A stretch of DNA of 47,457 nucleotides from the NCBI GenBank assembly GCA_032718475.1, contig JAUCBJ010008931.1, forward strand, positions 1-47,457. Reading direction: 5' to 3'. Made by a program: the position numbers and the translations under genes. This DNA is from Nemertoderma westbladi. Lineage: Eukaryota > Animalia > Xenacoelomorpha. Below the pieces are notes generated by a model. That model made no database searches, was not told where the DNA came from, and was given only the letters and a program-made list of their open reading frames with translations. Every line of letters starts with the position of its first letter. Within the stretch, counting starts at the first letter, position 1. Of this stretch, positions 1-33,811 are shown one piece after another.

Positions 1-438
1 GCCAAAATTTGCGGATGGACGTGTCTCTTTTTCCCGAGCGGTAAGGTCACTGTACTCGGTAAATCACCTAAAATAAAAAAAATTATTAAGTATATATATA
101 AGCATACTGATTATAAACTAACTTTTATTTCAATCAATAGCCAAACTTATATTATTAACAATCTAGACATAGACTATAGCAAATTAATGAAAACGGTTGG
201 GTTTCATTTTTTAGATAATTATTATAATGTGGAGGTGAAATATGAGCCGGAGATATTTAATAATATTCTTGTGCAGTTTTATCGTCGGGGTAAAACTAGT
301 TCTAATATCATAACATTTTGCGTTTTTTACACACGAAATGTTGTGTGTATGGCAAGACCCGAGATATTTCGAGTATTTTTTCCAAAGTTTTTGAATTTTA
401 TCGGTAATTTAGATAGTCATTTAGGTAGAAATATTTAA
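1..438 (+). CDS. TATA-binding-protein (TBP)-like protein, 5'-partial; frame 1 is open from base 1
   Basis: My translation of frame 1 gives TCLFFPSGKVTVLG...KYEPEIFNNILVQF...ITFCVFYTRNVVCMA. These match the TBP motifs TALIFSSGKMVCTG, YEPELFPGLIYR and IVLLIFVSGKVVLTG in order and approximate spacing. Confidence 0.75.
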   Translation, partial: AKICGWTCLFFPSGKVTVLGKSPKIKKIIKYIYKHTDYKLTFISINSQTYIINNLDIDYSKLMKTVGFHFLDNYYNVEVKYEPEIFNNILVQFYRRGKTSSNIITFCVFYTRNVVCMARPEIFRVFFPKFLNFIGNLDSHLGRNI

Positions 439-1170
439 TTTTTTCATTTTTTGGTGTCAGTTTTAGGTTTGTCCGGTGGGATCTCGTTAGGTTTTTAAAT
501 AAACGTGGATATTACCATTATTCACATTATATATATAACGTGTTTTATCGGTAGTCTTAGGTTGTCAAGGGTGCCGATTTCATTTCTGATGTCAGTTTTA
601 AATTTACATAAATCTAGTCTATCTGTCTTCGGTTTGTCAGTCTTTCTGTCAGTCAGCCAGTCTGTCAAAACTTAAAAAAGTTTGAATTTTATTAGTAATT
701 TGGGTAGTAATATTTAATTAGAAATTTCATAAAAATTTTTCGAAAAATTAAAATGTTCGTTTTTGAAAAATTTAAAAATTTTGAAAGTTTGCCCTTTAGG
801 ATCTCGTTTGGTTTTTAAATGCGGATATTATCATTGTTCCCTTGATATATATATATATATATAATGTGTTTTATTGATGGTCTTGGGTTTTAGGGGGTGC
901 CGATTTCATTTCTGATGTCAGTTTTTACATTTACATAAATCTAGTCTGTCTGTCTGTCGGTCTGTTAAAACTTAAAAAAGTTTGAATTTTATTAGTAATT
1001 TGGGTAGTAATATTTAATTAGAAATTTCATAAAATTTTTCGAAAAATTAAAAGTTTCATTTTTGAATAATTTCGAAATTTTGTAGGTTTGTCCTGTGGGA
1101 TCTCGTTTGGTTTTTTAAACGTGGATTTGCGTTCTTAATTATTGATGTTAGGTTTTAAAGAGTGCCGGTT
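385..1170. repeat. Imperfect tandem repeat, ~300-325 bp unit, about 2.5 copies, starting in the TBP-like ORF 3' end
   Basis: TTTGAATTTTAT..GTAATTT...ATATTTAATT near 390, 681 and 981; GATCTCGTT.GGTTTTT near 480, 800 and 1099; GTGCCGATTTCATTTCTGATGTCAG at 571 and 897. Confidence 0.85.
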
Positions 1171-1299
1171 TCTATAATTGCTCGGTTTTATCGCGTGAAA
1201 AACCCCACCCACGCATATAATCGATACTATTTATAACGGTGGTGGTGTTTTATTACTTACTATTATTGTTCTCGTTTATATAAGTTATTAATATATGTA

Positions 1300-1761
1300 A
1301 TGAAATCACTCAAAGCTTTAATTAAACAATTTGACGGGGATTTAAAGTTCTTATCTAACGCCTCCCCCAACCGTAGAAAAACCTTCTTACGTGTCGGCGG
1401 AACCGACGAACTTATAAGTTTTCTAATTAATATTATTCTAAATGTATTAAATGGTAACGTAAAAATTCCTGAGCAAACAATCGCGAGGTTAAAACGCCAT
1501 AAAAAAACAATACGCGAGATCGCTAAAAAACCAAAAGCCAAGTATCCCATTCGAATTTATCGTAAACGATTGGTGCAAAGGGGCGGATTTATAAATCTAC
1601 TAATCTCTGGTTTAATGAGTGGGCTTAACGCTTATCAGAAAATATCACCCATAATAACGGCTGTAAGAGGCAGAAAATTAGCCCAATCCCGCCGGGGGTA
1701 TAGACCTACTACCTCTGGCACACGCGTCAACCGTCAAGTTTCTAGGTTTCCCATCTACTGA
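1300..1761 (+). CDS. Conserved small basic Polinton virion protein with a QxGG/F adenain-type cleavage site
   Basis: LISFLINIILNVLNGNV...LKRHKKTIREIA...LVQRGGFINLLI pattern, typical of the Polinton ORF next to the ATPase. Confidence 0.7.
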   Translation: MKSLKALIKQFDGDLKFLSNASPNRRKTFLRVGGTDELISFLINIILNVLNGNVKIPEQTIARLKRHKKTIREIAKKPKAKYPIRIYRKRLVQRGGFINLLISGLMSGLNAYQKISPIITAVRGRKLAQSRRGYRPTTSGTRVNRQVSRFPIY

Positions 1762-1778
1762 GTGGCTACCTATCAACA

Positions 1779-2489
1779 ATGTCCCGAGAGCCGACGATAT
1801 CGCGGGAACCAATCACATCATACGACGCCTCTTTCAAGATGGGTTCGGCCATGATTATTGCGGGTCCAAGTTCTTCCGGAAAAACAGTGTTGGTATCAAA
1901 AATTGTAAAAAATAAAAATTTAGTTTTTGATATAACCCCGAAGCGTGTATTATTCTTTTACGGCGCCACCCCACCAGAATTCCCGGGTATAACACATCTA
2001 TTCAAAGGTTTACCGCAAAAAATTAATTCTATTTTCCGCGAAAACGATCTAATTATTATAGACGACTTGTTAAGCGAAAGTAAGAGTGATGAGAGTTTGA
2101 CAGAAAGCTTCACAAAAACCTGCCATCATACCTCCTGTTTCATTATCTATATAACACAAAATTTCTTCAGTAAAGGGGCGGAAACACGGACTAGAAGTCT
2201 AAATGCCCAATATTGTATTTTCACAAAAAATCCCCGCGACGCAAGTCAAATAAGCTATATAGCGCGGCAAGTGTACCCAAAAAATAGCAATTTTATTGTT
2301 CAAGCATATAGTGACGCCACACAAAAACCATTCACACACCTTCTCTTAGACTTTCATCAAAAAACGGATGATAGTATAAGAGTTAGGGGTGATATTTTCA
2401 ACCCATTAGGGCAAACTGTTTATCAACCCGCGAATATGAACTCTAACACACCTCACCAACGCCCCGAGGCCCAGTCTATACCGCAGTAG
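1779..2489 (+). CDS. DNA packaging ATPase (A32/FtsK-HerA-like)
   Basis: Walker A GPSSSGKT, Walker B LIIIDD, ITQN, RTRSLNAQY, KNPRD. Confidence 0.93.
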   Translation: MSREPTISREPITSYDASFKMGSAMIIAGPSSSGKTVLVSKIVKNKNLVFDITPKRVLFFYGATPPEFPGITHLFKGLPQKINSIFRENDLIIIDDLLSESKSDESLTESFTKTCHHTSCFIIYITQNFFSKGAETRTRSLNAQYCIFTKNPRDASQISYIARQVYPKNSNFIVQAYSDATQKPFTHLLLDFHQKTDDSIRVRGDIFNPLGQTVYQPANMNSNTPHQRPEAQSIPQ

Positions 2490-2609
2490 CGACGCCGTGC
2501 TAAAACCATTTTCACACATTTTTAGACTTTCACCGAAATTAGGTTATTATCGGTCCATGAACGTGAACTCTAGTATATAGTATTAATATATTAATAATGA
2601 TATATAACG

Positions 2610-3071
2610 ATGAAAAATAACGAGATTAGCCTCGGAAATTTTAAGAAGTTGTATCTAGTTTCTACTTTATTAACGGATACTTATAATAATAATAATAAGA
2701 AAAGCAATAATATAATACAACCGCTAGATGGTGTGACAATTTCATCCCAGAAAGCCAAACGATTGTTGAGTTATTTGATGCGATTCTCGCGAGACAGAGT
2801 GCGGTGGAACGATAATAATAAACTCTATATAGAAAATAAACTTATTCCCGGAGCAAATATTGATCATTTGATTGAATTGCTGACTACAAAAAAAAATAAG
2901 AAAAACACCGAAATAATTCCAGGACAAGCAACATTTTTGGGGTTATTAAAACGATTAAGGATACCAAAACGATTAATTGGTCGCGGTTGGTTGAAACGGC
3001 AAAGGGTCCGCGTGACCCCTTCCAACACAAAACGCGCCGACGCGTGGAAACAATACGTAGGACTACAATAA
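2610..3071 (+). CDS. Conserved Polinton hypothetical protein
   Basis: AKRLLSYL...RWND...IPGANIDHL...PGQATFL...IPKRLIG pattern, as seen in Polinton ORFs upstream of the integrase. Confidence 0.6.
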   Translation: MKNNEISLGNFKKLYLVSTLLTDTYNNNNKKSNNIIQPLDGVTISSQKAKRLLSYLMRFSRDRVRWNDNNKLYIENKLIPGANIDHLIELLTTKKNKKNTEIIPGQATFLGLLKRLRIPKRLIGRGWLKRQRVRVTPSNTKRADAWKQYVGLQ

Positions 3072-3195
3072 ATCGACGTGTGGAAACAAAGCGCAGGATA
3101 ACATTAAAATAGTAGTAGTAGTATGTTTTTTGAACGTTTCATATTAAGTATTAACTGTCATTGCAAGTGTTTTCTTCCACGACACGACACAACCG

Positions 3196-4281
3196 ATGGG
3201 GAGAATCGTAGAAAATCGAACAAACAAACGACTGGGAAGAATATATTACGATGTTTCAAATGCTGCCGGTTTCGCGAGCGTAACCAAACTAGCGAAAGCC
3301 GCTAAAGTTACGAGAAATCGCGCAAAAGAATGGTTGAGCTCCCAACGAACGTATTCCCTACACGCGCCGGCTAGGCGCCATTACCCGACATCAAAAATCT
3401 TCACGAGCGGTATTGGTGATCAATACCAAGCGGATTTGTGCGATATGCAACCTTTTAGGGGTGAGAATAATGGCTACGGTTACATACTTACTTGTATTGA
3501 CTGTTTTAGTCGGAAGGCGTGGGCGTTGGGTCTAAAACGTAAAACAGGGGTCGAAATTAAAAGGGCCCTAGCCGCGATATTTAAAGATAGAAAACCTAAA
3601 CGGCTAGCGGTTGATCAAGGAACTGAGTTTGTTAATAAATTGGTGAAAGATTTCTTACTGAACAATAATGTTCATTTTTATACTTTAGTTAGCCAATTTA
3701 AAGCTAGTATCTGTGAAAGGCTGAATCGCACCCTCAAATCTCGCATGTACAGAATTTTCACGAGGAAACAGAATAGAGAATGGATGGGTATATTGCCAAA
3801 AATATTGGTTGCATATAATAATTCAATACATAGAACCATTGGTATGGCGCCAAACTCTGTCAATAAAAAGAATGAAACTGACCTATTTTTAAAACTATAT
3901 GGGAGTGTGGGTCATCCCAATAAAAGAAAACGCCGTGCGCAGCGTCGAGTTCATTTCAAGGTTGGTGATAAGGTGCGGCTGAGTTTAGCTAGAAAGCCAT
4001 TTGACAAAGGTTATACACCTAATTATACTGTAGAAATTTTCAAAATCTACAGAATAAGATTGGATCGAGAGCCGTACCCTATGTACGAAGTTGCGGACTC
4101 GAATGGGCGCGTTATAAAGGGGACATTTTATCGGCATGAAATCCAAAAGGTAATAGAACCATTTCAATTCCTACCAATTGAAAAAATAATTAAAGAAAAA
4201 GTAAATAAAAGCGGCAAAAAGCAATATTTGGTTAAATTTGTTGGTTTTGCGGCACATCGGTGGGTTGATCACGTACAATAA
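3196..4281 (+). CDS. Retroviral-like (RVE) integrase with C-terminal chromodomain-like tail
   Basis: DDE triad in QADLCD, AVDQGTEF and ICERLNRTLK. YNNSIHRTIGMAP motif. Tail IEKIIKEK...QYLVKFVGF. Confidence 0.95.
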   Translation: MGRIVENRTNKRLGRIYYDVSNAAGFASVTKLAKAAKVTRNRAKEWLSSQRTYSLHAPARRHYPTSKIFTSGIGDQYQADLCDMQPFRGENNGYGYILTCIDCFSRKAWALGLKRKTGVEIKRALAAIFKDRKPKRLAVDQGTEFVNKLVKDFLLNNNVHFYTLVSQFKASICERLNRTLKSRMYRIFTRKQNREWMGILPKILVAYNNSIHRTIGMAPNSVNKKNETDLFLKLYGSVGHPNKRKRRAQRRVHFKVGDKVRLSLARKPFDKGYTPNYTVEIFKIYRIRLDREPYPMYEVADSNGRVIKGTFYRHEIQKVIEPFQFLPIEKIIKEKVNKSGKKQYLVKFVGFAAHRWVDHVQ

Positions 4282-4303: not shown

Positions 4304-5188
4304 ATGGATTACTTACATTTAACGTTGACTTCCAACGCCAGTCTAGATAAATATCCTGATAACACTCCCAGCGATTTCACGATTGAGTTGTCCAAACCTA
4401 TCCCCGTCAGCACAGATTGGGTCGTGGGTCTAAAGGAAATACAGTATGTGTCGACCTATAGAAATATTGAACAAAGATCTGGAATTAGAATTGGTGAATA
4501 TATGGTTGATGAGGATTTGGAATTTCATATAGCTCCATACAATCTTATAGAAATCGATTTTAATCTTGGTCTATATGCTTCTATTGAGTCAATTTTAAAC
4601 CATATTAGTGTTTATTTGAAAAATCCCACAATATCCCACCACGGTTTCAAAGATGTTAAGTTTAACTACCAAAAACATACATCAAAAATTCGTCTACATT
4701 GTGAGAAAGGCCGCTATTTCCAATTCTATGGAGATATAATAAATATTTTCGGGTTATCGAGTTTAAAAAATAATTTAATGGGCCTTGGGGCGCTTTGGGC
4801 AATACACTATAACAAAGATGATGATTTATTGAACTTAGGCTGTAAAGATACAAACAAAGCGGATGGAGTTGAATTCCCCGAACCTTGCGATATAACGAGG
4901 GATAGACACACAATGTTTATATATACTGATATGATTGAATCTTCTCACGTAGGACATTCGATGGCGCCTCTTTTGCGGATAATCCCTTTGAAATGGGAAC
5001 CATACTCATTCATCAACCTGGAATTCAAAAACACACATTACAAACAATTAAGAAATAAAAAAGTGCTCGACACAATTAGTATAACGCTTCGCGACCATAA
5101 AGGAAAGCATATAGTCTTTCATGGGGGTAAAACAATTTTAGTTCTAGAACTCAAAAAACAACAACGGCGACAAAAACTACAAGAATGA
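4304..5188 (+). CDS. Minor capsid (penton-like) protein, paralogue 1
   Basis: LTLTSNAS..YPDNT.SDF...WVVGLKEI and FIYTDMIE..VG...PLLRI...ISITLRD..G..I.F..G..ILVLE. Confidence 0.85.
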   Translation: MDYLHLTLTSNASLDKYPDNTPSDFTIELSKPIPVSTDWVVGLKEIQYVSTYRNIEQRSGIRIGEYMVDEDLEFHIAPYNLIEIDFNLGLYASIESILNHISVYLKNPTISHHGFKDVKFNYQKHTSKIRLHCEKGRYFQFYGDIINIFGLSSLKNNLMGLGALWAIHYNKDDDLLNLGCKDTNKADGVEFPEPCDITRDRHTMFIYTDMIESSHVGHSMAPLLRIIPLKWEPYSFINLEFKNTHYKQLRNKKVLDTISITLRDHKGKHIVFHGGKTILVLELKKQQRRQKLQE

Positions 5189-5988
5189 ACAGTTATTACG
5201 TTGTACTACCCTCAAACGCAAACCCCATAGAATTCCCGCGTAATAGCGCCGCCGATTTCCAAACAAATTTGCAAATTCCTTTACCTTTCGCTAAAGGGCA
5301 ATGGTTAATAGGTTTAACCGGTATAACGTACGTATCTAGTATCAGGTATGACAATAGCGACATTTATATAAAGGCCATAAAAAATAAAAAAATGTTTACA
5401 AGAGATGTTACTCTCCCCGAAGGATCTTTCCTATCATTGGAAAGGATCATTGAGTACTTCAACAAAAGCCTTATTAAAGGCCAAATTAATATAATTGATA
5501 ATACAGCACGCTCTGGTAATATAACCATACATTTTAAAGGTAAACAGTTGTCGATATTTGTCAGTAAACGTTTGGGTGGTTACCTAGGATTAACAGAACA
5601 CGAGGTTGATGGCAAAGGTTTTATGTGTGTGCAAAATGCTGCGGGGGATTATCACTTGCTAAGGATTGATTCGCGGAATAATAAGTACGACTGCCATAAG
5701 CATCCTAATGCTGTCGAAATACTGGAACCCAACATAAATATACATATCAATTGCGTCGAACCTCAATTTGTAGACAATAGCGAATACCCTCTGTTGCGTA
5801 GCATACCCATAGAAGGGGAATATGGGCAAATTATTAGTCGTGAAGTTGAGGAAGTCTACTATAAAAAAGTTAATTCAACATCTAATTTACGTTATATACG
5901 AGTTCGATTGATTGGAGATTCCGGAAATTTGTTGCGCTTTCATTATGGAAATTCAATATTGACGCTTCATTTTATACGAATTGATTGA
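5185..5988 (+). CDS. Minor capsid (penton-like) protein, paralogue 2
   Basis: YYVVLPSNA..FPRN.AADF...WLIGL and VEPQFV...PLLRSI...IRVRL..DSG..LRF.YG.SILTLHF. ATGA overlap with paralogue 1. Confidence 0.85.
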   Translation: MNSYYVVLPSNANPIEFPRNSAADFQTNLQIPLPFAKGQWLIGLTGITYVSSIRYDNSDIYIKAIKNKKMFTRDVTLPEGSFLSLERIIEYFNKSLIKGQINIIDNTARSGNITIHFKGKQLSIFVSKRLGGYLGLTEHEVDGKGFMCVQNAAGDYHLLRIDSRNNKYDCHKHPNAVEILEPNINIHINCVEPQFVDNSEYPLLRSIPIEGEYGQIISREVEEVYYKKVNSTSNLRYIRVRLIGDSGNLLRFHYGNSILTLHFIRID

Positions 5989-6062: not shown

Positions 6063-6659
6063 ATGGATAAATTTCTAAGTCGCAGCCGTGGGCGTGATTA
6101 TTACCCGACGCTGGAAAACCCGGGAATAATAGTAGATTTCCAATATTATACGCATCTTCCGCAGATCGACCAACACCCCGTTGCAACCATTTATTTTAAA
6201 GAGTTTGCGGCTTATAATACTACCATCAAATCATTAGAAAACGTATGGTTTATTAATGGTCCACCTGCAAAAATTTTAAGTTTAAGCGAATACGACCGTC
6301 TCACACAACTCGCCAATATTACGCATCACATTAATTTTGACTACGGATTTATGGACCAAAGCGCATTTAAAATGTACATACAGGAATGGTTACAAGAAAA
6401 AAAACGGTTGGGGTTTCAAATATTAATACGCGGAATACCGAAATTATTTATTTTAAAAAATGAATTTAATGTGAATGGAACACTTCTAGAAACGTACGGC
6501 ATAAACGAAAAATATGTTGATTATGACACCAAATGCCTTTTTCACGATTTTTCGGCAATAACAAATTGTGCCTACCATTCTGATAATAGTGATTTTTGTT
6601 TTAATTATTGTTCTGCGAAACTCGCGGTTGGTTATGGGAAATGGTTGTCGTCGAATTAA
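6063..6659 (+). CDS. DEDD/DnaQ-fold (Maelstrom-like) putative nuclease
   Basis: IIVDFQ, YFKEFAA, GPP, THHINFDYG, IRGIPK, LETYG, and C-terminal CAYH...YCS giving an E-C-H-C-like zinc motif. Confidence 0.55.
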   Translation: MDKFLSRSRGRDYYPTLENPGIIVDFQYYTHLPQIDQHPVATIYFKEFAAYNTTIKSLENVWFINGPPAKILSLSEYDRLTQLANITHHINFDYGFMDQSAFKMYIQEWLQEKKRLGFQILIRGIPKLFILKNEFNVNGTLLETYGINEKYVDYDTKCLFHDFSAITNCAYHSDNSDFCFNYCSAKLAVGYGKWLSSN

Positions 6660-6925: not shown

Positions 6926-7453
6926 ATGTCAGATTCTGATTTGTTTAAATTATATAGCACCCCACAAATCCAACTGGGAAGCGGGAATTATAGCGATATA
7001 CCCGTTTTTAAGGGTGGAAGCATTCTCCCGGGGTTTGGCCCATCTACTGGTATATGGAATAATAAGAATAATAAATTCGGGCGGCGATACACCCAAAATC
7101 GCCAGCGCGGACGCGGAATATTAACAACTGGTCTGGGTATATTAGCCCGCAAGTTAGGGAGAAAGGTGCTAACTAAGGCACTCCCCAAAGCAGCGAAAGT
7201 AGCACGGAAATACATAATACCGGAAGGAAAACGTATTTTACGCAGTAAAGCAGATGATTTGATAAATAAAGTGGCCGAGCGGTTAGAACCTCATCCAAAG
7301 ACTCGCCAAATCGCCCAACGGGTATACAATGAATTTACAAACCCGAAAAGTAAAAAAAAGAGGAGCAGGAAACGACGACACCCAAGTGTGGGTATGAACG
7401 TTGGGCGCAAACGTAAAAAGCGAAATAATAAATGCCGCGATATTTTTATGTAA
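6926..7453 (+). CDS. Basic virion core protein (adenovirus pVII-like role) with adenain-type sites
   Basis: QLGSG, PVFKGG and QRGRGI motifs, K/R-rich tail, C-terminal DIF. Lies directly upstream of the major capsid gene. Confidence 0.75.
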   Translation: MSDSDLFKLYSTPQIQLGSGNYSDIPVFKGGSILPGFGPSTGIWNNKNNKFGRRYTQNRQRGRGILTTGLGILARKLGRKVLTKALPKAAKVARKYIIPEGKRILRSKADDLINKVAERLEPHPKTRQIAQRVYNEFTNPKSKKKRSRKRRHPSVGMNVGRKRKKRNNKCRDIFM

Positions 7454-7462
7454 CTTAACAAA

Positions 7463-8713
7463 ATGAGTAAATTAGAATTATCATTATTCTCAAGTAAAAC
7501 AAATCAGCGAGAATATACATCTTCACATTTTTCGGATATCTACCCGATTTCTACTCTTGACGCGAATGCCCGACAAATCGAGTTCTTTATACCCCAGTCA
7601 AATGTTCTATATACTGATTTAAAGAATTCGAAATTTCACATTAAATATAAAATTACATGGGATGGTAATAGGGCTAACGACGATACAACCCTCCACCATC
7701 TTAATTACCCGGGTGGGTCACTATTTGAAAATTGTTCGTTATATTTAAATGAAAAGCTAGTTGAAACCTCGAATGGGTTCTACGCCTATAAGTCTACGTT
7801 TCAGACATTACTGTTGACAGATGCTAACGAAAAACGCAGTATTTTAAGAGCTGGTGGGTATGAAGATACTGATAATAATCTAGGTGGGGTACCTGTCGCT
7901 ACTGAGAATGACGTTCGCGGGAATTATGTTAAATTCGTTGTGGCCCCAATTTTTTTAGACCTGGCAAGCCAGGACAAATTACTGCCGCCGGGAATTAACA
8001 TTCGACTTCGTATAGACCGAGTATCGAATAATTTTTTTTTGAAAGTTGAACCCCCCGCAGGATTGGTAAACCCAAGAGTTGAAATCATGAATATTAATTT
8101 AAAAATAAAACGCCACAAGATTGATGCCGAGGTTATGCGTGCGCATTTGTTGGGGTCACAAAAAAATGACTTTATTTATAACTTGTTAAAACAAGAAGTG
8201 AAAACCTTCACTATTGGTGGCGGGCAGTCCAGTTATACAGAATCGAACATAATCCAAGGAAAATTACCTAAGTATATTTTGGTTGGAATGCTTACCAACG
8301 CCAGCTTCAACGGGGAATTAAGCAGTAATCCGCTACATTTTAACCATTTCGGTTTAAATTATGCCGAACTAAACATCGACTCCCGTATTATACACGGATA
8401 TCCATATCGCCCTAATTTTCTGGAAAACAATTTTATGTTGGAATTCGAAAGTTTAATGAACGTGTTCAAGAGCTTGAGTGGCGTATTTTGCTCGCTAACA
8501 CCTGAACGGTTTCGTACCCAATTTCCTTTGATCGTATTCGATCTTACTGCGGGAGGCGACCAAAGCCATGAGATTCAACCTAGTATTCATACAAGCGGGC
8601 ATTTGATTCTGAAATTTAGTAATGCACTAGATAACACTATTAACGTTATATTAATGGCAAGCTATGACGCTCTTCTATCTATTTCGGAAGCCAAGGAAAT
8701 AATAACTGAATAA
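7463..8713 (+). CDS. Major capsid protein (double jelly-roll)
   Basis: KLELSLF, IEFFI, YTDL, SLFENCSLYLN, YAYK, LLPPGINIRLR, GKLPKYILVG, FNG...NPLHFNHF. Confidence 0.9.
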   Translation: MSKLELSLFSSKTNQREYTSSHFSDIYPISTLDANARQIEFFIPQSNVLYTDLKNSKFHIKYKITWDGNRANDDTTLHHLNYPGGSLFENCSLYLNEKLVETSNGFYAYKSTFQTLLLTDANEKRSILRAGGYEDTDNNLGGVPVATENDVRGNYVKFVVAPIFLDLASQDKLLPPGINIRLRIDRVSNNFFLKVEPPAGLVNPRVEIMNINLKIKRHKIDAEVMRAHLLGSQKNDFIYNLLKQEVKTFTIGGGQSSYTESNIIQGKLPKYILVGMLTNASFNGELSSNPLHFNHFGLNYAELNIDSRIIHGYPYRPNFLENNFMLEFESLMNVFKSLSGVFCSLTPERFRTQFPLIVFDLTAGGDQSHEIQPSIHTSGHLILKFSNALDNTINVILMASYDALLSISEAKEIITE

Positions 8714-8777: not shown

Positions 8778-9221
8778 ATGTTGGACTCTATACAATTAGC
8801 GAAATTCCCGGTGGGGCCCGAATACATTGGTGTTTACGCAATCGACCAATTACACCTAATACATGCAAAAAAAAAATATAAGCATAAACAAAATTATTCA
8901 TTTATTATTAATAATCAACGTATAGGCCTACCTGGGCAACACTGGTCTTGCATACGCGTGGTTAAGAGAATTGCTTATTATTTAGATTCGTTTGGTAAAG
9001 CTCCTCCGCCAAAAATATCATATTGGTTGCATAAATATACCCAAAGGCATACTTGGAATCGTAAAATGTTTCAAGCGCCGCAATCGACTCAGTGTGGTCT
9101 ATTTTGTCTGTATTATTTAACCGAGGTGCCGAAAAATCCTGGAGCAATGAATATATTCACCTCTAATTTGCGGTACAATGATTTATTGTTATTACTGTGG
9201 ACACTTTCATTAATAAAATAA
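8778..9221 (+). CDS. Adenain-like cysteine protease (capsid maturation)
   Basis: GVYAID, PGQHW (His), YLDSFG (Asp), QAPQSTQCGLFC (Gln/Cys). First ATG at 8778. Confidence 0.92.
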   Translation: MLDSIQLAKFPVGPEYIGVYAIDQLHLIHAKKKYKHKQNYSFIINNQRIGLPGQHWSCIRVVKRIAYYLDSFGKAPPPKISYWLHKYTQRHTWNRKMFQAPQSTQCGLFCLYYLTEVPKNPGAMNIFTSNLRYNDLLLLLWTLSLIK

Positions 9222-10181: not shown

Positions 10182-10493
10182 TGTAAGTAATAATTTAATT
10201 TCAACAATTAATATAATAACAATAAATAATTACCAAAATTCAACAATAGTACCCGCACGCTAAAGGCTTTGCTCACTCCGCGCCGCGTAGGTACCCATAT
10301 TCTAAGGCTTCGTTCGATTCATGGCTCGACCTATTTTTTCATCAAATCACTGTATAACAGAATTATTGGCAATTAAAACTTATGTTGGCATCGGACGGCG
10401 ATAAGACAACTCACCGATAGCGCCTATATACCACCACCACCTACCGAAAATTAATGTAAGTAATAATTTCGAAAATTATTATAATAACAATAA

Positions 10494-10894
10494 TCACTTC
10501 ACGGCTCGCCCCACAACTAGTTGCTTAGCAATAACTATAGAATTGTAATATTGGTGGCTGTCATTAGTTGAATACAATAACCTTACTTCGATGCTATCAC
10601 TCACTTCATGGCTTGCCCCATAGGTAGAATAATCAAATTAAAATAATATTATAAATACTATAACCTTATACTCACTTCACGGCTCGCCCCATTTTTTCAA
10701 TGTTGGAAAGGAATGAAGGGGACGTCGGGTGATGGTGGTAGTGGTAATGATGTTGTGGGTGAGGAAGAACTCACTTCACGGCTCGCCCCCATAAGTCTGT
10801 GTTTATTTACCTTTTTTAGTTGTTGCGTCATAACCTTACTTCGGCGCTATCACTCACACTTCGGCGCTATCACTCACTTCATGGCTCGCCCCAT
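10494..10894 (+). repeat. Dispersed array of five copies of the (C)ACTCACTTCAYGGCTCGCCCCA motif
   Basis: Copies near 10494, 10598, 10670, 10769 and 10871, spaced ~70-105 bp apart. Confidence 0.85.
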
Positions 10895-10929
10895 AGGTAG
10901 AATAATCAAATCATGTTAAAGACTTTTAT

Positions 10930-11243
10930 AATAACAAACGTCTGCAACCCACTTACTATATTGGGTTTTACCTATTGCGGTTCAAGGTCAAACGCCGACC
11001 GGTAGACACGAATTAATTAAATTACTTCCGCCTGCAAACTGGTCTTATACCGCGTATGTCACATATATACGCAGCGGTGACATATGTTACATATGCACAA
11101 TGGTAACCATGGTAACCATAGTAAGTGGGTGGGGCAACAATAGTAATCATAGTAAGTAGGCGGGGCAAGAGCCGTTCGGCAAATTCTTTAACATGGTAGA
11201 CTATGGCAGACGCTGTCTCAATCACGTTGTTTAACGTACTACT
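10930..11243. repeat. Candidate right terminal inverted repeat region of the Polinton
   Basis: Short palindromes and repeats (GGTAACCATGGTAACC, CATATG, GGCGGGGC), ending in TACTACT, the complement of the AGTAGT start typical of Polintons. The partner TIR is not in the window. Confidence 0.45.
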
Positions 11244-11597
11244 GATATACTCCCACGCCACACACTCTGCACCCACTGTTCTCAAATCTATATAACGTTT
11301 CCCTTCCATGTGGTTCGCCCCATTGGTACAATTTTCTACATAACGCTTTCAGTCTCGGAATATATAAAGTTTCCTTTCAATGCGCCCACGGTACGCGGGT
11401 CAATTTCTGCTGTCTAAATGCTGCGACCCGCTGTGATGCATCGACACTTTCGGTTTGGACGGTAACAACTGCACGTGTAAGTAAGTTGGTACGTCATGTT
11501 AAGAAATCCCGCAATATAAGCAGCACCGGTTCGGTGTAGATCGTTGACACCCATAAGAGGTGTCGAGATGGGAGGCCATTTGGTATGAGACTAAAAG

Positions 11598-11751
11598 GTC
11601 GTTCACCGTGTAGTCGTTCACCGTGTAGTCGTTCACCGATGTAGTCGTTCACCGATGTAGCCGTTCACCGATGTAGTCGTTCACCGATGTAGTCGTTCAC
11701 CGATGTAGTCGTTCACCGATGTAGTCGTTCACCGATGTAGTCGTTCACCGA
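11598..11751. repeat. Tandem repeat GTCGTTCACCGATGTA, 15-16 bp x10
   Basis: Ten consecutive units read directly from the sequence. Confidence 0.97.
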
Positions 11752-12498
11752 ACTTTCTGGTGGGTGCCGTTAAGTTACCTGTAGGTACACTAAATAGAGG
11801 ATGATTTCTAACTTGCAGATAATGTTCTTTTAAGGGCGTTTCTGTTTCGGCAAATGATATAAATTCCTCATAGAACTTGTATCGACTATAAAGACAGCAA
11901 AGAAAACTCCAATATTTCGTCCACGTTTCGCTTTATAGACATTGCACTGATGCGGATGTTACCGGCATGTAGGCCTAAATGGTGACTATTAATTAATCCA
12001 CAAACTCACGATAATTATATAAATGTATATGAATGTTTATAGATTGTCATGGGAACGATATTTCATGACAAATAATTGGACGTTGTTATGTAATGTTAGC
12101 GGTATTTCCCGCCCATCTGTAAATGTGATATCCTACAACGCGCTCTCAATAATAAGTTCTGTTAATGCAGAAATATAATTCACATGTGGAATAAACACGA
12201 GTGAGGCGCCTTCGTGCAACAAAAGCAGCAAGACATCTTGCGAACAATACGGTGAAACTGTATAAGAAATTAAATTAGTAATTATACTAAATTCCTCATT
12301 AGCTTTTGGCATTTTTAAATAGCTGGACCTGCTACGTGGTATAATGGTGATGAGGATAGTATTGTGTGCCAAGTCTACATTACATTTTTTTCAAACTAAA
12401 TTGTATACCGGTATTGGTTTTTTTCTATGGTGACAATATTATATTGTTAGTAATCTAACAATTATATATTTATTTATTATATTATTGTTTTATTGCAG

Positions 12499-12718
12499 GC
12501 GGGATATTATTGTTCATATGGTTAACCAATCGGATACAGCAGTGGAGTCCTTCTCCATTGAAACAACCAATCCATCCATTGAATGTTCTTATACCGATTG
12601 TCAATCATCCGTTAAAATTCTACCTGGGGGATCTATTGATTTGTCAGTTTCCATAACAGCATGTGATATTGGATGGAGTCGTTCAGAGTTGGACGACCCA
12701 AAGAAGGTGTCGCTAAAG
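12499..12718 (+). CDS. TRAPPC9: TRAPPC9 (NIBP/Trs120) internal exon A
   Basis: TTGCAG| acceptor, |GTAAAG donor. RDIIVHMVNQSDTAVE...KILPGGSIDLSVSI resembles QQLIIKLENIG...PLQPGKVATFTINI. Phase-0 end joins exon B in frame. Confidence 0.65.
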
Positions 12719-13886
12719 GTAAAGTAACTTTCATAGTATAAATTAAAATATAGGAATTCACCACTCATCTGCTATAGTTTCACCCAAATAGTTAAGTTTT
12801 CTATAATCATGTAAAGCGATACATTACGTTACGTACCTAGGCTGACGTGTGACGGGAACCAACTGAGTTGGCAGTGTCGGATCCCGACCGGTGTGTGGAT
12901 TGTACGCGTCGCCACGTCCGTGAGCTGCTGAGCTGTCTACTGGATGTGTACTAGTAGGCCGAAGGCCGTTCGAAATAATCTGAGTTCTGTTATCAGTATT
13001 AATATTCACAGTAATCGATAATAGCACAGTCTGAATATAATAGCATACAATACAGCGGTTAGTGACGACGACGACGGTCAAAACTGTTCCGGTCTCACAA
13101 CTCAACTGTAAGGATACCAACAAACTGGTAATCAATAATCACAATGGTTATATCATTGACACATGTTAAATTACCCCTGCACTACAGGGTGGCATTAATA
13201 TCCAATAGATGCGCTCTAATCACCCCCAATGTGCTTTCCCGCCCACCATTGGCTTAACCTGATTAATTGTCACCTCGCCACTCCCTGTTGCCACTGTCCC
13301 TGTGTGCTAGCCTTACTAGCTTGTTTGTCCCTCTGAGGTGGTTTGACCTTTCAACTCTCTCTGTGGCTTGCGAAAATGCCACTATTCCCATTTTCGGTGG
13401 GTAATGACGCAAATAATATTATAAAGAAATGTTGATAACGTAACATCATGACCTACCGATAGGTATCTACAGTCAGTAGGTCAGATATTTTTACTCAAAT
13501 ATAATTGTAATTAAACATGTTAAGCACTAAAGCAATATGCAATAGGAGATATTGACTGCACTGTGTTGTGTAAATAAAAAGTTAAAAATAATTCACTACA
13601 ATTATATTTAAAGTTACTAAATTTAATAATAATTAAAAGCTATTAATAATAATAGCTATTAATAACCAGTAGGGCCTAGCTATATTATTATAACATGGCT
13701 CCAAACGCCACCATATATATAAGCTAACTTATTTATAACATAATTTATATAATTTTTACATTTATTTATACAGCAACTAATATAATTTGTGCAGTTTCTA
13801 TCACTTACAGTATAATGTATATATACAATCATTTCGTAATGTTAAAATTTTGGAATAAAACTACATACATACTTGTTGCAAAGTAT

Positions 13887-13977
13887 TTTACAGTGTTCTG
13901 ATCCTCGTGGCTTTATTTTCACTCACTCAATAACGTTCGTTCGTGTAACAAAGCCACTCGGATCATCACACTGTAAA
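13887..13977. repeat. Imperfect palindrome, probably a non-autonomous DNA element remnant
   Basis: TTTACAGTGT..GATCC..GTGGCTTT paired with AAAGCCAC..GGATC..ACACTGTAAA. Confidence 0.7.
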
Positions 13978-14326
13978 GTGCTACTTTACACACAATTATG
14001 TAAATAGTTATTACAACATTGTTAATAACAAAATGATATCCGAATTTGTCGCTTTTATTAGCGTCGCATAGCTGCTCTCGGCACCGTATCGAATTAGAAT
14101 CATGTAAATTGATATTTTCATTCTAGAATAATAAAGTAATACTTTCCGAACTAGAATCTTATAAAGTGATACTTTCCACATTATTATCGGATCATAAATT
14201 AAATAAATATTAAATAATTACGGTACCATAATTAAAAATTTAACCATAAGCGAACCTAATTAAAGTCAGAAGCAAACCTAATTGAATTGTAACCACAATC
14301 ATAAATAATAAGAGCAAAGTCAGGAT

Positions 14327-15724
14327 TTAAATTTCGCTCAAATTATCAGAATAAAGTTGAGATCCGTCGGCAGTTAATATCGGTCCGCGGTACGAAACTT
14401 CTTCTGGAATTCTCGTCGGTTCTGGCGTGGTCCCTTCTTCCAACATTGCGACCAAATGGTCCCTAACGACGGATAGTTGAGGGCGACTACTCGGGTCGAC
14501 CTGGAAACAACGCAAGGCAACCAATAGGAAGGAGTCACACGGGACCGGGTCCCATGCGGGGATCTTAGGATCGCGGTGCAGACGTGCGAGAATCTCGATG
14601 GGATTGAGTTTAACGTATCGATAGTAATCTATTAGCACGCGATCCGTTAGCAGGAATCCACTGGTTCCATCCCACATCTTCTTTCCGGTAAACATTACAA
14701 GTAGCACTGCTCCGAACGCATAAACATCCTTAAGATTTCCGTCGCAAATATGTCCCGGTCGCCGATTCTGTTTCCGACATTCCGGCGGCAAGTAATGCTC
14801 CGTCCCGGAACAAAAACTTCCACCTTCAGATAAATTATTTCCAAACTCTCCACCCAACCCGAAGTCTCCTAGTTTAGCGACGTAGTAACCTCTATCACGA
14901 CAATCACTCCCATTTTTAACTAACAGAATGTTTTGCGGTTTTATATCACCGTGAAACGCCTTCATGCTATTGGCCCCTTTTTCCCCGTGTAAGTATGCTA
15001 GACCTCTCGCTGCCCCGTGGGCTACAAACAATCGTTGTGGGCCGGTTAGTACAGGGTTACCTTGGGTTCCGTCCGCTTGTATCAAACCCTGCAACGTATT
15101 ATCCGCTAATTGCATAACCAACGCCGATTCACTTTTATACATACACTTACCGTGGAATGTAATGATGTTTTCGCAGGTGTATTTCTTCATTAATAGAGCT
15201 TCAATTAACGAGGGTTCGATTCCCGAACGCGTTTTTTTTATAACTTTTAGGGCAACGTGAGATTGTAAACGCCCTAAATACACTTTAAATACTCGGGAAA
15301 ATTTACCCCCACCTATAAAATCAGTGGTTTCGTTAATTTCTCCAAAATCGGAACTTTGAAATTCCATCATATCATGTATTTCTAATGGCGCCGTTTTAGC
15401 TGCACCGGAGTGATTTTGTACAGGAACTATAGATGTTGGAAGACATAAAGGATGCCATTGTGGGTCAACGTGCGGTTGAAGAAGTTTCGCCGCTTTGAAG
15501 ATACGTAGATTACAGAGCGCTATATACACGTCGCAGAGATGGCAACCCTTCAATCCGGCTATGTGGATTATGCGACTTGCCCTATTATCAGTGATTTCTA
15601 TAGGTGGGATTCCCAACTGCGCCCCTAAGGCAAGGTAAACCTCGGGATCCCCCAATGAATCAACTATTTTGTAAGTCTCAAAGAGCGGCCTAGTTAGCCG
15701 TACATCTTCGAGGAAGATAACCAT
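14327..15724 (-). CDS. Pelle/IRAK-family Ser/Thr kinase with N-terminal death domain; intronless, nested antisense in a TRAPPC9 intron
   Basis: IGGGKFSRVF, VALK, HGDIKPQNILL (non-RD, as in Pelle), KLGDFG, GTEHYLPPE, DVYAFG. N-terminus has a death-domain-like pattern YLALGAQLG...DVYIALCNL...AAKLLQPHV. Confidence 0.85.
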   Translation of the reverse strand: MVIFLEDVRLTRPLFETYKIVDSLGDPEVYLALGAQLGIPPIEITDNRASRIIHIAGLKGCHLCDVYIALCNLRIFKAAKLLQPHVDPQWHPLCLPTSIVPVQNHSGAAKTAPLEIHDMMEFQSSDFGEINETTDFIGGGKFSRVFKVYLGRLQSHVALKVIKKTRSGIEPSLIEALLMKKYTCENIITFHGKCMYKSESALVMQLADNTLQGLIQADGTQGNPVLTGPQRLFVAHGAARGLAYLHGEKGANSMKAFHGDIKPQNILLVKNGSDCRDRGYYVAKLGDFGLGGEFGNNLSEGGSFCSGTEHYLPPECRKQNRRPGHICDGNLKDVYAFGAVLLVMFTGKKMWDGTSGFLLTDRVLIDYYRYVKLNPIEILARLHRDPKIPAWDPVPCDSFLLVALRCFQVDPSSRPQLSVVRDHLVAMLEEGTTPEPTRIPEEVSYRGPILTADGSQLYSDNLSEI

Positions 15725-15862
15725 GATTACTACTACATTTAGAACATCACAATGAAAATGTACCGGTACGCAGTTTTAGCACTGGTGGTATGGCAGTCAG
15801 TAAACTGATGATGATGGCCATTTGCACTAAGGTACACAACCACTACACACACAATACATGTT

Positions 15863-16686
15863 TGTGGGGCCATCGCGCAGGACGAGGGTCAGTTATTAGA
15901 TACAGATTAAAATTGAGCAATTCTATCCCAAAATCGGTACTTAAGAAATTTAAATAAATAATTAAGAAAATTTAACCAAACTTTTAATTAAAAAAAAAAA
16001 CATTTCGCATGGGCAGCTTGGTATCGATGTCATAGAAGTCCACAGTCAAACTACTCAAAAAAATCAATGCATTCTTCAGTCCTCGGGTCTCGCTCATCGG
16101 TTAGTCCAGTTTGCCCGTAGCGCTAGCGCAGTAGAGATACCAAAAGTCGACAGGTCGAGGTCGCCAACGACACTGCGACAGACAGAGGCGGTGGCCGTGA
16201 TGGCGAGTTGTTTGAGTACCGGTACATGATATGGCTGAATAGTCGCGAATACACTGAATACTCTGAACTCTGCAATCTGGAAATGCTGGAAGGCTGAAGA
16301 AAGTTAAATAGGCTTACTACACTTTCCAAGGCAGCAAGGCCACATTATTAATTGCTGCATTGTACCGGTATTGCTGAATTTCAAACCCACATGATATATC
16401 CTGCAGTCTCCTAGCAACCAGCTGATGCCAAGCCTAATAATTTTTGGGTAAATAAATTTATTTACACAGATACTGCACGAAGACCCCACGCAAATTCAAC
16501 ATGGAAAATTTCTAAACTTTTGCCAGACTACATAATATGTACCAAGTTTGGATATATTTTATCGAGATTTGGCTGAGTTATTAACGTTTAAAATTGGACA
16601 CAACAGATCAACAGAGCAACAGACACACCGATTGTGTTAGTGGTACCCGTATGCTAAGCTCGCTTACTTTCGTCGCTCGCCCCACA
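15863..16686 (+). mobile_element. Non-autonomous Helentron/HINE-like element, copy A
   Basis: Left GTGGGGCCATCGCGCAG, inverted subterminal CTGCACGAAGACCCCAC (16471-16489), TGTACCAAGTTTGG...GAGTTATTAACGTT core, 3' end GCTCGCCCCACA. Confidence 0.65.
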
Positions 16687-17379
16687 CTATAAGTTCATAC
16701 CTTTGTGAGTAGGTGTTTGAGGAAAATCATTGGCTGTCGACCACGTCTATTCTCACCCCCAGTCTACCACAACACAAGGTTGAAACAGCCGGCGAAAACA
16801 TTGCCCAGCAAGCTTCATGGGCATGGGAGTCTCTGTAGTGAATAGTCTCTTGACAATAATGGGATGTTGCCATATATCACCTTTTGCTTTGTGTGCATCT
16901 AACTACCTATAATATACCGGTAGAATATTTGAATATTATATTTTTGAAAATACTAAAAGTACTGTAGTGCAGTATTTCACACTGGCTTTAAATTACCTTT
17001 TCATTACACAAACATTACAGAAACGAGTAACGCTTATGGGCACAATATTAAACATTACTCCTATTAAACTCTTACAATGAACTGTTAGCGAGGGAATACT
17101 TCATCTAAATGTTATGGCCGAAATATTATAGTCCTGGGCCAGTATTGAACTGAATATATTTCATTGTGGATATAATGTACTCAAGAAAATATAATATAAT
17201 GTTGTTGAAAAAGAAAACACATCTGAAGATCGCGAAGCCAATTTTCTGTGTTAGCTGTTGGAAGTAGCTACTGTTAAGTTTAACGTTTTTTTTTTTCAAT
17301 GTAACTTCGTTGATTGTTCATATTTTATTGTCGCTACAATACAGTGATAAACTAACCAATAATTTTAAATATTTTTTAG

Positions 17380-32728: not shown

Positions 32729-33811
32729 TTACATCGGGACAACCTGTTCGTATTCATTGGCTTTCTCTCCCTCACCTTCACCCTTCTTTGCCCCCTCACC
32801 TTCCTCCCGCTTGACCTCCTTATTGACCTCCTTCACCCCCTTACCGACCTTCGACTGTGGTCTCTTCGCCCCCCTGGGGCGGGGTGGAGGCGGCGGATTC
32901 AGATAGTAATAGCTCTTATAGTACTCATCGCGCAGCTTCTGGTAGACAAACCTCGCGCCCACGCGGATCTTACGGACCTGGTAATGCTGAACTTCTCGTA
33001 GGATCCTGAGGATCCGTGGATGCCTCCACATGATCCGGGGAGTGATGTCCATCTGGTTGAGGGAGTTGATGCAGCGTACGGCCTTGGCGATGTCCGTGTC
33101 CCCCTCGACGAGACTCAAGCGGAGCTCGGCGACCGTGACGGGGGCAGTGAACTCAGCCCGGAGTTCCGTCCAGGCGGTGTTCCGTACCGCACCAACGGTG
33201 CGCAGGTTGAAGGACTTGAACCAGGACCACATGATTTCCGGGATCATGACTGGGCACCTGCCGCCGTAGGGGGGGAAGTGGCGATTGTGGACGTATTGGA
33301 CGACGTTGTAGATGGGCCCGATGCAGATCCAGTTGGAGCGGTTGTGGAAGCAAACCAACTCAGCTGTTGGAAATGGACGGAAGTCGAACCTCCTTCCTTT
33401 CATTAGGCCCCAAGTGTACTCGAGATCGTAGTATTCATTGAGCGCTTTCCAAGTGACTGGCTTCCTTAGGTTGTAATAGAATACCACCGGTATCGGAGGT
33501 ACTCCATCGTCATCGCTGTCGGGAAACTCTTGGTGTTCGAGGTCCTCCTTGAACTGTTTTAGATCGTTTAGCGAGTAGTTAAACGCCTTGTTTCCTCTCC
33601 GGACGCCAAGGGTTCGCTTGTTCTTCTCGTAATCGCGAATCTTCGATGCGGGGACATCCCAGATCTCCTGCGCTCCGAAGAAGTAGACGGAGTATTTATC
33701 GCCCCGTTTCTGCGGTACAGAGACAATACGCGCGGGCCACGCCTGGAAGCCTTCCAGTTCAGCGAACACCAGTTGTACTGGCTGGAATCGAGCTCGCAGA
33801 TTTTTCGCCAT
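32729..33811 (-). CDS. LEDGF/HDGFL2-like protein: PWWP, central PUR-like segment and integrase-binding (IBD) domain; intronless
   Basis: FQPVQLVFAELEGFQAWPARI...KYSVYFFGAQE (HDGF-type PWWP). AELRLSL...DIAKAVRCINSL...HPRILRILREV...VYQKLR (IBD). Confidence 0.8.
   Translation of the reverse strand: MAKNLRARFQPVQLVFAELEGFQAWPARIVSVPQKRGDKYSVYFFGAQEIWDVPASKIRDYEKNKRTLGVRRGNKAFNYSLNDLKQFKEDLEHQEFPDSDDDGVPPIPVVFYYNLRKPVTWKALNEYYDLEYTWGLMKGRRFDFRPFPTAELVCFHNRSNWICIGPIYNVVQYVHNRHFPPYGGRCPVMIPEIMWSWFKSFNLRTVGAVRNTAWTELRAEFTAPVTVAELRLSLVEGDTDIAKAVRCINSLNQMDITPRIMWRHPRILRILREVQHYQVRKIRVGARFVYQKLRDEYYKSYYYLNPPPPPRPRGAKRPQSKVGKGVKEVNKEVKREEGEGAKKGEGEGEKANEYEQVVPM

What the first reader, a model, noticed from the sequence alone, without database searches (positions are those of the whole stretch)
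1..438. Polinton-encoded TATA-binding-protein-like gene, hidden by the ORF track
Seen: frame 1 has no stop from base 1 to 438. It encodes the end of one TBP-like repeat (TCLFFPSGKVTVLG) and a full second repeat (YEPEIF...ITFCVFYTRNVVCMA). Known: TBP homologues occur in giant DNA viruses but are not part of the canonical Polinton gene set. Inference: this endogenous virus carries its own highly diverged general transcription factor, either to redirect host Pol II to viral promoters or to act as a decoy.
Basis: partly seen in the sequence, partly recalled or inferred. Interest (0 to 1): 0.85.

Follow-up and report, generated by a model that had tools for sequence, protein, structure and literature searches.

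The report
Maverick element carries its own TBP
A multi-copy, virus-like Maverick transposon, probably in an animal genome, carries a heavily diverged relative of the cell's TATA-binding protein that keeps its key DNA-bending residues and the acidic loop used to grip the partner factor TFIIB, so it likely steers the host's RNA polymerase to the element's own genes.

Summary
Frame 1 is open over 1-438 (145 aa, start cut off by the window; 0 of 20,000 shuffles are as open). TBP homology is weak but consistent: Pfam TBP E=0.001, below its cut-off; a 120-TBP profile scores 22.9 bits against at most 8.3 for 2,000 shuffles; hhalign 94%; three colinear motifs. A model guided by a TBP alignment matches TBP, but that test is circular, and the single-sequence model failed.

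The ORF lies in a Maverick: ATPase, integrase, putative capsids and protease follow, the right end is at 11243, and read depth is tens of times host level. The left end and PolB were not seen.

All 3 visible intercalating phenylalanines and both TFIIB-contact glutamates are kept, unlike most viral TBPs; other DNA-facing residues have changed. Best reading: a promoter factor using host TFIIB and Pol II (0.55). No shared promoter box was found upstream of 11 ORFs, no close relative was found, and expression was not shown.

A 'TBP' label already appears in a 2021 MELD-virus figure legend. This scan noted Maverick TBPs earlier in at least 5 other genomes.

The parts
1..438 (+). TBP-like ORF, 5' end outside the window. 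End of the N-lobe (residues 1-35), linker and uncertain first strand of the C-lobe, rest of the C-lobe (56-142).
16..60 (+). N-lobe strands S3-S5 (residues 6-20), with the intercalating Phe F11 and the S-G-K turn
   Evidence: Best ungapped offset for the repeat-1 block (33.1, next 18.1 which is the C-lobe copy); Pfam match on residues 7-33
241..258 (+). Second stirrup YEPEIF (residues 81-86): E82 and E84 at the TFIIB-contact positions, F86 an intercalating Phe. The following Pro-Gly is replaced by Asn-Asn.
   Evidence: role of the two glutamates from PMC7221094; their mapping to this loop is my inference
310..354 (+). C-lobe strands S3'-S5' (residues 104-118), with the intercalating Phe F109. 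The conserved Gly, Lys and Thr are replaced.
384..1130 (.). About 300-nt imperfect tandem repeat, about 2.5 units, beginning inside the last 18 or so codons of the ORF
1300..1761 (+). Basic 153-aa ORF, likely a virion core protein (label inferred from recalled Maverick layout)
   Evidence: no Pfam hit
1779..2489 (+). A32/FtsK-like packaging ATPase
   Evidence: Pfam AAA_14 E=8e-4 and Pox_A32 E=0.009, both below cut-off
2610..3071 (+). 153-aa ORF of no known family
3196..4281 (+). rve integrase with a weak C-terminal chromodomain
   Evidence: Pfam rve E=1e-10, Chromo E=0.002
4304..5988 (+). Two paralogous ORFs (4304-5188, 5185-5988), putative minor capsid proteins (label recalled, not tested)
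   Evidence: 25% identical over 284 columns, E=9e-16
6063..6659 (+). 198-aa ORF with faint nuclease-like hits only
   Evidence: Maelstrom E=0.06, dnaq E=0.11
6926..7453 (+). Basic 175-aa ORF, likely a core protein (inferred)
7463..8713 (+). Putative double-jelly-roll major capsid protein, 416 aa (from size, position and recall; no library hit)
   Evidence: no hit
8778..9221 (+). Adenain-like cysteine protease
   Evidence: Josephin E=3e-4, Peptidase_C5 E=0.1
10200..11243 (.). Right terminal region, ending in ACTACT at 11243. The next six bases (11244-11249) are a candidate target-site duplication. The inner boundary is approximate.
   Evidence: Sequence. An X1 contig spans 11214-11653 at single-copy depth; an X2 contig joins 11244 to 1002 nt of other sequence.

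Best explanation
The ORF at 1-438 is a strongly diverged TATA-binding-protein homologue inside a multi-copy Maverick/Polinton, and it likely acts as the element's own promoter factor, predicted to bend AT-rich viral promoter DNA and to recruit host TFIIB and thereby RNA polymerase II. Shown: the open frame, TBP homology, position inside the element, and the kept residues (F11, F86, F109; E82, E84). Inferred: a two-lobed saddle once the missing start is added; altered DNA preference, because both base-contacting Thr and the stirrup Pro are replaced; escape from some host regulators, because the basic N-lobe helix is about 6 residues shorter; and use of host TFIIB, because no TFIIB-like or polymerase gene is seen among the 11 other element ORFs. 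Which genes it switches on is untested.
For: Homology: Pfam TBP E=0.001; 22.9 bits vs at most 8.3 for 2,000 shuffles; hhalign 88.7% against 4 viral-contig TBPs and 93.7% against 102 TBPs; the ten best ESM-Atlas hits with a family share the TBP family or clan, at 0.89, which is a lead only. The alignment-guided model has mean pLDDT 76; its top 4 of 48,161 chains are TBP-containing (Z 8.7-9.9; 2.4 A over 78 residues to 1mp9), and the best non-TBP is Z 6.5. In the element: the X1 contig over 28-359 has depth 3345, against 2454-2767 for other element contigs and 33-44 for host flanks. No terminal repeat separates it from the ATPase-integrase block. Only one variant at 5% share or more is listed in 1-438, and it is synonymous. 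The most conserved stretch is the TFIIB stirrup, whereas viral TBPs keep the first of these glutamates only about 40% of the time and usually bring their own TFIIB (PMC7221094).
Against: No shared promoter word upstream of 11 element ORFs: 0 of 9 word settings beat dinucleotide shuffles (best 19 of 150). Of 6 named motifs only TATTAW reached p=0.04, and it was chosen after looking. The single-sequence model failed (pLDDT 36) and matched no TBP among the 50 rows shown. The guided model is circular, its whole-chain fit is poor (Foldseek best E=1.2e-3, TM about 0.4, rmsd 7-10 A), and residues 44-54 are unresolved. The 120-TBP set was gathered with a profile that included this ORF, so it is enriched for the same stirrup word. 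No close relative was found to show conservation. Near-identity of copies may reflect recent spread rather than selection. The unseen left part of the element could encode its own TFIIB-like partner.
Confidence: 0.55

Rival explanations
1. The protein is a decoy or dominant-negative TBP that soaks up host TFIIB or blocks host promoters, damping host transcription or defence rather than driving viral genes.
For: The TFIIB loop is intact while the DNA-facing residues have drifted, and no dedicated promoter box was found.
Against: All three visible DNA-intercalating Phe are kept, which a soluble TFIIB sponge would not need. The tested viral TBP mimic, KSHV ORF24, activates viral late genes and needs these Phe (10.1101/2025.08.25.672222).
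Confidence: 0.15
2. The TBP fold has been repurposed as a non-transcriptional minor-groove binder, for example on the terminal repeats or internal tandem repeats during replication, integration or packaging.
For: Extreme divergence (terminal branch 7.9 changes per column), changed DNA-facing residues, AT-rich repeats next to the gene. TBP-lobe folds serve other nucleic-acid jobs in bacteria (PMC7221094).
Against: The best-kept stretch is the protein-contact stirrup with both glutamates, whose known role is binding TFIIB, TFB or Brf.
Confidence: 0.14
3. It is a TBP-derived passenger (a captured host TBP/TRF copy) that no longer matters to the element and survives because the family spread recently.
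For: Copies are near-identical across the element. A tandem repeat overlaps the 3' end of the gene. GC at codon positions 1 and 3 is lower than in the core genes (0.32 and 0.28 vs 0.40-0.46 and 0.33-0.39).
Against: Only 15-29% identity to cellular TBPs yet a stop-free AT-rich frame with the functional motifs selectively kept. That pattern needs long purifying selection after divergence.
Confidence: 0.09
4. The ORF is a real element gene, but the TBP likeness is chance or only a shared alpha/beta fold.
For: Pfam score below cut-off and on 27 residues only; Atlas score under 0.9 and recognition 1830, under the 2300 mark; no TBP hit by single-sequence search of PDB.
Against: Three separate motif blocks in the right order and spacing, an internal two-lobe repeat, and shuffle controls far below the real score.
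Confidence: 0.07

Closest known systems
Cellular TBP (Pfam PF00352; PDB 1ytb, 1cdw, 1mp9, 7o4i_O)
   Same: Two-lobe motif order, intercalating Phe at 3 of 3 visible positions, the Y-E-P-E stirrup, basic charge (pI 9.6 for the visible part, like the eukaryotic examples).
   Different: 15-29% identity, N-lobe helix about 6 residues shorter, insertions in the C-lobe, stirrup Pro-Gly and both base-contacting Thr replaced, no intron in the visible part, multi-copy and mobile.
TBP-like proteins of Nucleocytoviricota and poxviruses (Ravarani et al. 2020, PMC7221094)
   Same: Virus-borne, highly diverged, L5.1 Phe kept in both lobes. The top BFVD hits of the guided model are such proteins.
   Different: Those viruses mostly lose the TFIIB glutamates and encode their own TFIIB, and many encode their own RNA polymerase (recalled). 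Here both glutamates are kept and no TFIIB or polymerase is seen in the visible 11 kb. The paper's main text does not mention Polintons or Mavericks.
Beta/gamma-herpesvirus TBP mimic (KSHV ORF24; 10.1101/2025.08.25.672222)
   Same: A virus that depends on host Pol II and carries a TBP-fold factor with conserved Phe and an altered DNA face.
   Different: ORF24 is a multidomain protein in a six-protein complex, binds Pol II directly, lacks the TFIIB acidic residues and reads TATTWAA. This ORF ends right after the C-lobe, keeps the acidic residues, and TATTWAA occurs upstream of only 1 of 11 ORFs.
'TBP' gene labelled in MELD viruses with adintovirus-like PolB (Starrett et al. 2021, PMC8502044, Fig. 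5 legend)
   Same: A TBP-like gene in a Polinton-grade element.
   Different: Only a legend abbreviation. I could not see the figure, so I do not know which element or host it refers to. No analysis in the passages and section read, and no text hit in the supplement. Relationship to this ORF is untested.
Maverick/Polinton (adintovirus) elements of animals
   Same: rve integrase, packaging ATPase, protease, putative capsids, terminus reading AGTAGT on the minus strand, multi-copy insertion.
   Different: Extra TBP-like gene and duplicated putative minor capsid gene; PolB and the left end are not in the window.

Membership tests
TBP family (PF00352) | Profile score at or above the curated cut-off | tested here: not met
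   19.3 bits vs 22.9, on a 5'-truncated sequence
TBP family (PF00352) | Significant homology by profile methods | tested here: met
   with shuffle controls
TBP family (PF00352) | Two pseudo-symmetric lobes in one chain | tested here: inconclusive
   End of lobe 1 and most of lobe 2 are present. The start of lobe 1 is outside the window, and the inter-lobe geometry of the model is wrong (rmsd 7 A over 128 residues).
TBP family (PF00352) | Four intercalating Phe | tested here: inconclusive
   3 of 3 visible positions are Phe (F11, F86, F109); the fourth would lie just upstream of base 1
TBP family (PF00352) | Two acidic TFIIB-contact residues in the C-lobe stirrup | tested here: met
   E82 and E84 align to columns that are Glu in 116 and 117 of 120 TBPs
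TBP family (PF00352) | Central Asn pair, base-contacting Thr pair, stirrup Pro | tested here: not met
   Thr (99 and 106 of 120) replaced by L19 and M117; Pro (116 of 120) by N87; the C-lobe Asn may be N46 or N54, register unsure. The roles of Thr and Asn are partly recalled.
TBP family (PF00352) | Binds and bends TATA-like DNA and nucleates a pre-initiation complex | not testable with these tools
   Needs biochemistry
Maverick/Polinton | rve integrase | tested here: met
   E=1e-10
Maverick/Polinton | Packaging ATPase and adenain-like protease | tested here: met
   Weak Pfam hits below cut-off plus P-loop and Cys-protease motifs in the translations
Maverick/Polinton | Double-jelly-roll major and single-jelly-roll minor capsid proteins | tested here: inconclusive
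   No informative hit in Pfam or PHROGs, and none for the major capsid candidate in NCBIfam; not folded
Maverick/Polinton | Protein-primed PolB | not testable with these tools
   Not in the window; no genome is held
Maverick/Polinton | Long terminal inverted repeats and 6-bp target-site duplication | tested here: inconclusive
   The right terminus at 11243 is supported by sequence and two junction contigs; the left end and second target-site copy were not seen
Host TBP/TRF gene | Single-copy, spliced, highly conserved locus | tested here: not met
   Depth is tens of times host flanks; no joint from the ORF to host exons is listed; 15-29% identity to cellular TBPs

The most novel reading that the evidence does not exclude
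A lineage of animal Mavericks runs the smallest viral transcription switch yet: one stand-alone TBP with a rewired DNA face that plugs straight into host TFIIB and Pol II, with no viral TFIIB, polymerase or activator complex. It would be an orthogonal promoter-recognition module, and a sign that these elements have a regulated, virus-like gene programme.
Probability: 0.35. Interest if true: 0.8.

Novelty: new variant of a known kind. Interest (0 to 1): 0.52.

Why it matters
How Mavericks time their genes, and whether they still behave as viruses in animals, is open. A dedicated general transcription factor gives a direct handle on that. Known viral TBPs either pair with a viral TFIIB (giant viruses) or bypass TFIIB inside a multi-protein complex (herpesviruses). 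A TBP that keeps the host TFIIB socket but changes its DNA face would be a third design, easy to test in vitro and of interest for orthogonal promoters. The score is held down because viral TBPs are well known, a TBP label already exists for a Polinton-grade virus, and here the gene is truncated, has no retrievable relatives and has no demonstrated target motif.

Tried and rejected
Extending the gene leftwards failed. No genome is held. No locus came from viral, metagenome or prokaryote contigs. A 20-nt probe gave 2 metagenome loci that match only the probe. The 41 viral loci with a degenerate N-lobe motif encode no TBP.

No close relatives were found: 0 of 32 and 0 of 260 candidates; the 2 hits among 1.84 billion representatives are repeat proteins matching short stretches and were rejected; none in phages; 0 of 10 window proteins are in the collection exactly. 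The putative capsid and the ATPase found no viral-contig locus.

The single-sequence fold was uninformative. The tree of 50 rows gave a terminal branch of 7.9 and weak support, so the origin (host or giant virus) cannot be placed.

A shared promoter box was not found. Splicing inside the ORF: donor-like words occur at 41, 59, 290 and 404, but the frame and the alignment run through them and no joint is listed within 1-438.

Expression: no RNA holder was listed. Run X4 shows GT..AG joints in a host gene, so it is probably RNA. It covers 1-65 and 1135-3848 but not most of 66-550. Its depth on the element relative to X1 (about 0.025) is within the range seen on high-copy host repeats, and a hole in contigs proves nothing, so this is no evidence either way.

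No complex prediction was run: only an archaeal stand-in for TFIIB was available, and DNA cannot be included.

Full report
Observation. Frame 1 is open from base 1 to the stop at 436-438 and gives 145 residues with the quoted motifs. It has no start codon before base 187, which explains why an ORF track would miss or shorten it. With 70% A+T, none of 20,000 base shuffles has any fully open frame, and the other five frames of 1-600 reach at most 65 codons. It is a real coding frame cut by the window edge.

Is it a TBP? Single-sequence searches find nothing close. Profile methods agree on TBP. Pfam PF00352 is the only family listed, E=0.001 on residues 7-33, below the curated cut-off. The nearest ESM-Atlas clusters are archaeal and giant-virus TBPs at 0.89, which that tool calls a lead only. 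I fetched TBPs from viral contigs and 120 from the protein database (204 passed, 120 were listed). The 4 viral-contig TBPs give hhalign 88.7%, and 102 of the 120 give 93.7%. A profile of all 120 scores the ORF at 22.9 bits, against at most 8.3 for 2,000 shuffles and 5.3 for 178 other window peptides. That set was gathered with a profile containing this ORF, so it is biased towards the same stirrup word; the Pfam result is not. Three blocks fall in the right order and spacing: repeat-1 strands at residues 6-20, the stirrup at 79-93 and repeat-2 strands at 104-118.

Structure. The single-sequence model failed (pLDDT 36; no TBP among the rows shown). With 102 TBPs as alignment the model reaches pLDDT 76, with 80-88 over residues 61-140 and under 50 at 44-54. 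Its four best matches among 48,161 chains contain TBP (Z 8.7-9.9; 2.4 A over 78 residues to 1mp9), and the best unrelated fold is Z 6.5. Whole-chain Foldseek fits are poor (best E=1.2e-3, TM about 0.4), as expected with the first strand of lobe 1 missing. This shows compatibility, not independent proof. I put TBP homology at about 0.93.

What is kept and lost (columns of 120 TBPs). Kept: L9, F11, the S-G-K turn and G20 in lobe 1; Y81-F86 with E82 and E84; F109 and V115. So 3 of 3 visible intercalating Phe are present; the fourth would lie just before base 1. Changed: both conserved Thr (now L19, M117), the stirrup Pro-Gly (now Asn-Asn), and Gly-Lys of the lobe-2 turn. The basic helix of lobe 1 is about 6 residues shorter but still Lys-rich. 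The central Asn of lobe 2 may be N46 or N54. Ravarani et al. (PMC7221094; passages and section 3 parts 2-3 read, supplements not seen) identify two C-lobe glutamates as the TFIIB/TFB/Brf contacts. They report about 40% conservation of the first in viral TBPs and find a viral TFIIB in almost all viruses that have TBP. Mapping their positions to E82 and E84 is my inference. KSHV ORF24 lacks these acidic residues (10.1101/2025.08.25.672222; passages and section 15). This ORF therefore looks host-compatible on the TFIIB side and rewired on the DNA side.

Context. Downstream on the same strand lie a packaging ATPase, an rve integrase with chromodomain, two paralogous putative minor capsid genes, a putative major capsid gene and an adenain-like protease. 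The capsid labels rest on size, position and recall. The element ends at 11243 in ACTACT. An X1 contig spans 11214-11653 at host depth, and an X2 contig joins 11244 to 1002 nt of other sequence, which fits an empty site and thus a polymorphic, recent insertion. No matching left repeat is in the window, so the element continues beyond base 1 and PolB is unseen. Single-contig depth over the ORF in X1 is 3345, against 2454-2767 for other element genes and 33-44 for host flanks; X2 gives 16,155 against 11,166-14,015 and 80-140. Depth is not a copy count, but the gene clearly travels with the element at tens of copies or more; free viral DNA could also contribute. Only one variant at 5% share or more is listed in the ORF, at base 360, and it is synonymous; the adjoining tandem repeats show many. 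The host is probably an animal, inferred from neighbouring genes and GT-AG introns.

Mechanism. The most likely role is a promoter factor for element genes that recruits host TFIIB and Pol II (0.55). None of the 11 other element ORFs hits a TFIIB or polymerase family, though the left part is unseen. Against it, I found no shared promoter word in the 100 nt upstream of these 11 ORFs: 0 of 9 settings beat shuffles; TATAWAW 3 of 11, TATTWAA 1 of 11, and TATTAW 7 of 11 at p=0.04 chosen after looking. Earlier notes of this scan report such boxes in other genomes; I could not reproduce one here, although start codons are a poor proxy for transcription starts. Rivals are a decoy (0.15), a non-transcriptional DNA binder (0.14), a passenger (0.09) and a false TBP call (0.07). 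Origin cannot be placed: the terminal branch is 7.9 changes per column (50 chosen rows, the other fetched TBPs left out). Expression was not shown.

Prior knowledge. TBPs are known in giant viruses, poxviruses and herpesviruses. They are also mentioned for mirusviruses (search listing only) and mirusvirus-like algal elements (PMC10675990, passages). [quoted passage not shown] (PMC8502044 passages and section 10; preprint passages). The figure was not visible, and the supplement gave no text hit, so image-only supplements could hold more. Searches listed no paper analysing a Maverick TBP; the library lacks most subscription journals. This scan holds 38 notes with these words in at least 5 genomes, none with sequence like this one. 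These are unchecked and are not counted as support.

Verdict. A real, element-borne, highly diverged TBP homologue; a new variant of a known kind; function inferred; interest 0.52.

Noticed in passing
window 11214-11653: The insertion looks polymorphic: run X1 has a junction contig across the element end, while an X2 contig joins base 11244 to other sequence. This suggests recent mobility.
   Followed up: partly
window 384-1130: An imperfect 300-nt tandem repeat starts inside the last codons of the TBP-like ORF. Its sub-motif near 901-965 has roughly 20-fold higher depth than the element in X1, so it occurs in a larger repeat family.
   Followed up: partly
window 4304-5988: Two tandem paralogous putative minor capsid genes, 25% identical.
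   Followed up: partly
window 6063-6659: A 198-aa element ORF with faint Maelstrom (E=0.06) and DnaQ (E=0.11) hits, possibly an RNase H-fold nuclease relevant to piRNA evasion. Untested.
   Followed up: no
window 12717-17377: An intron of a host gene (GT..AG joint in run X4) contains an intronless protein kinase ORF on the opposite strand (14327-15724; Pfam Pkinase E=1e-29). X4, listed as 'DNA?', is probably an RNA run.
   Followed up: partly
window 38811-40232 and 42166-43575: Two intronless paralogous ORFs that look like M20/CNDP dipeptidases (recalled, not tested); the second appears to differ in several otherwise shared motifs.
   Followed up: no
window 32729-33811: An intronless PWWP plus LEDGF-domain ORF in a GC-rich patch; it could be a retrocopy or belong to another mobile element.
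   Followed up: no
window 11608-11751: A 16-nt tandem array of about 9 copies in the host flank just right of the element.
   Followed up: no
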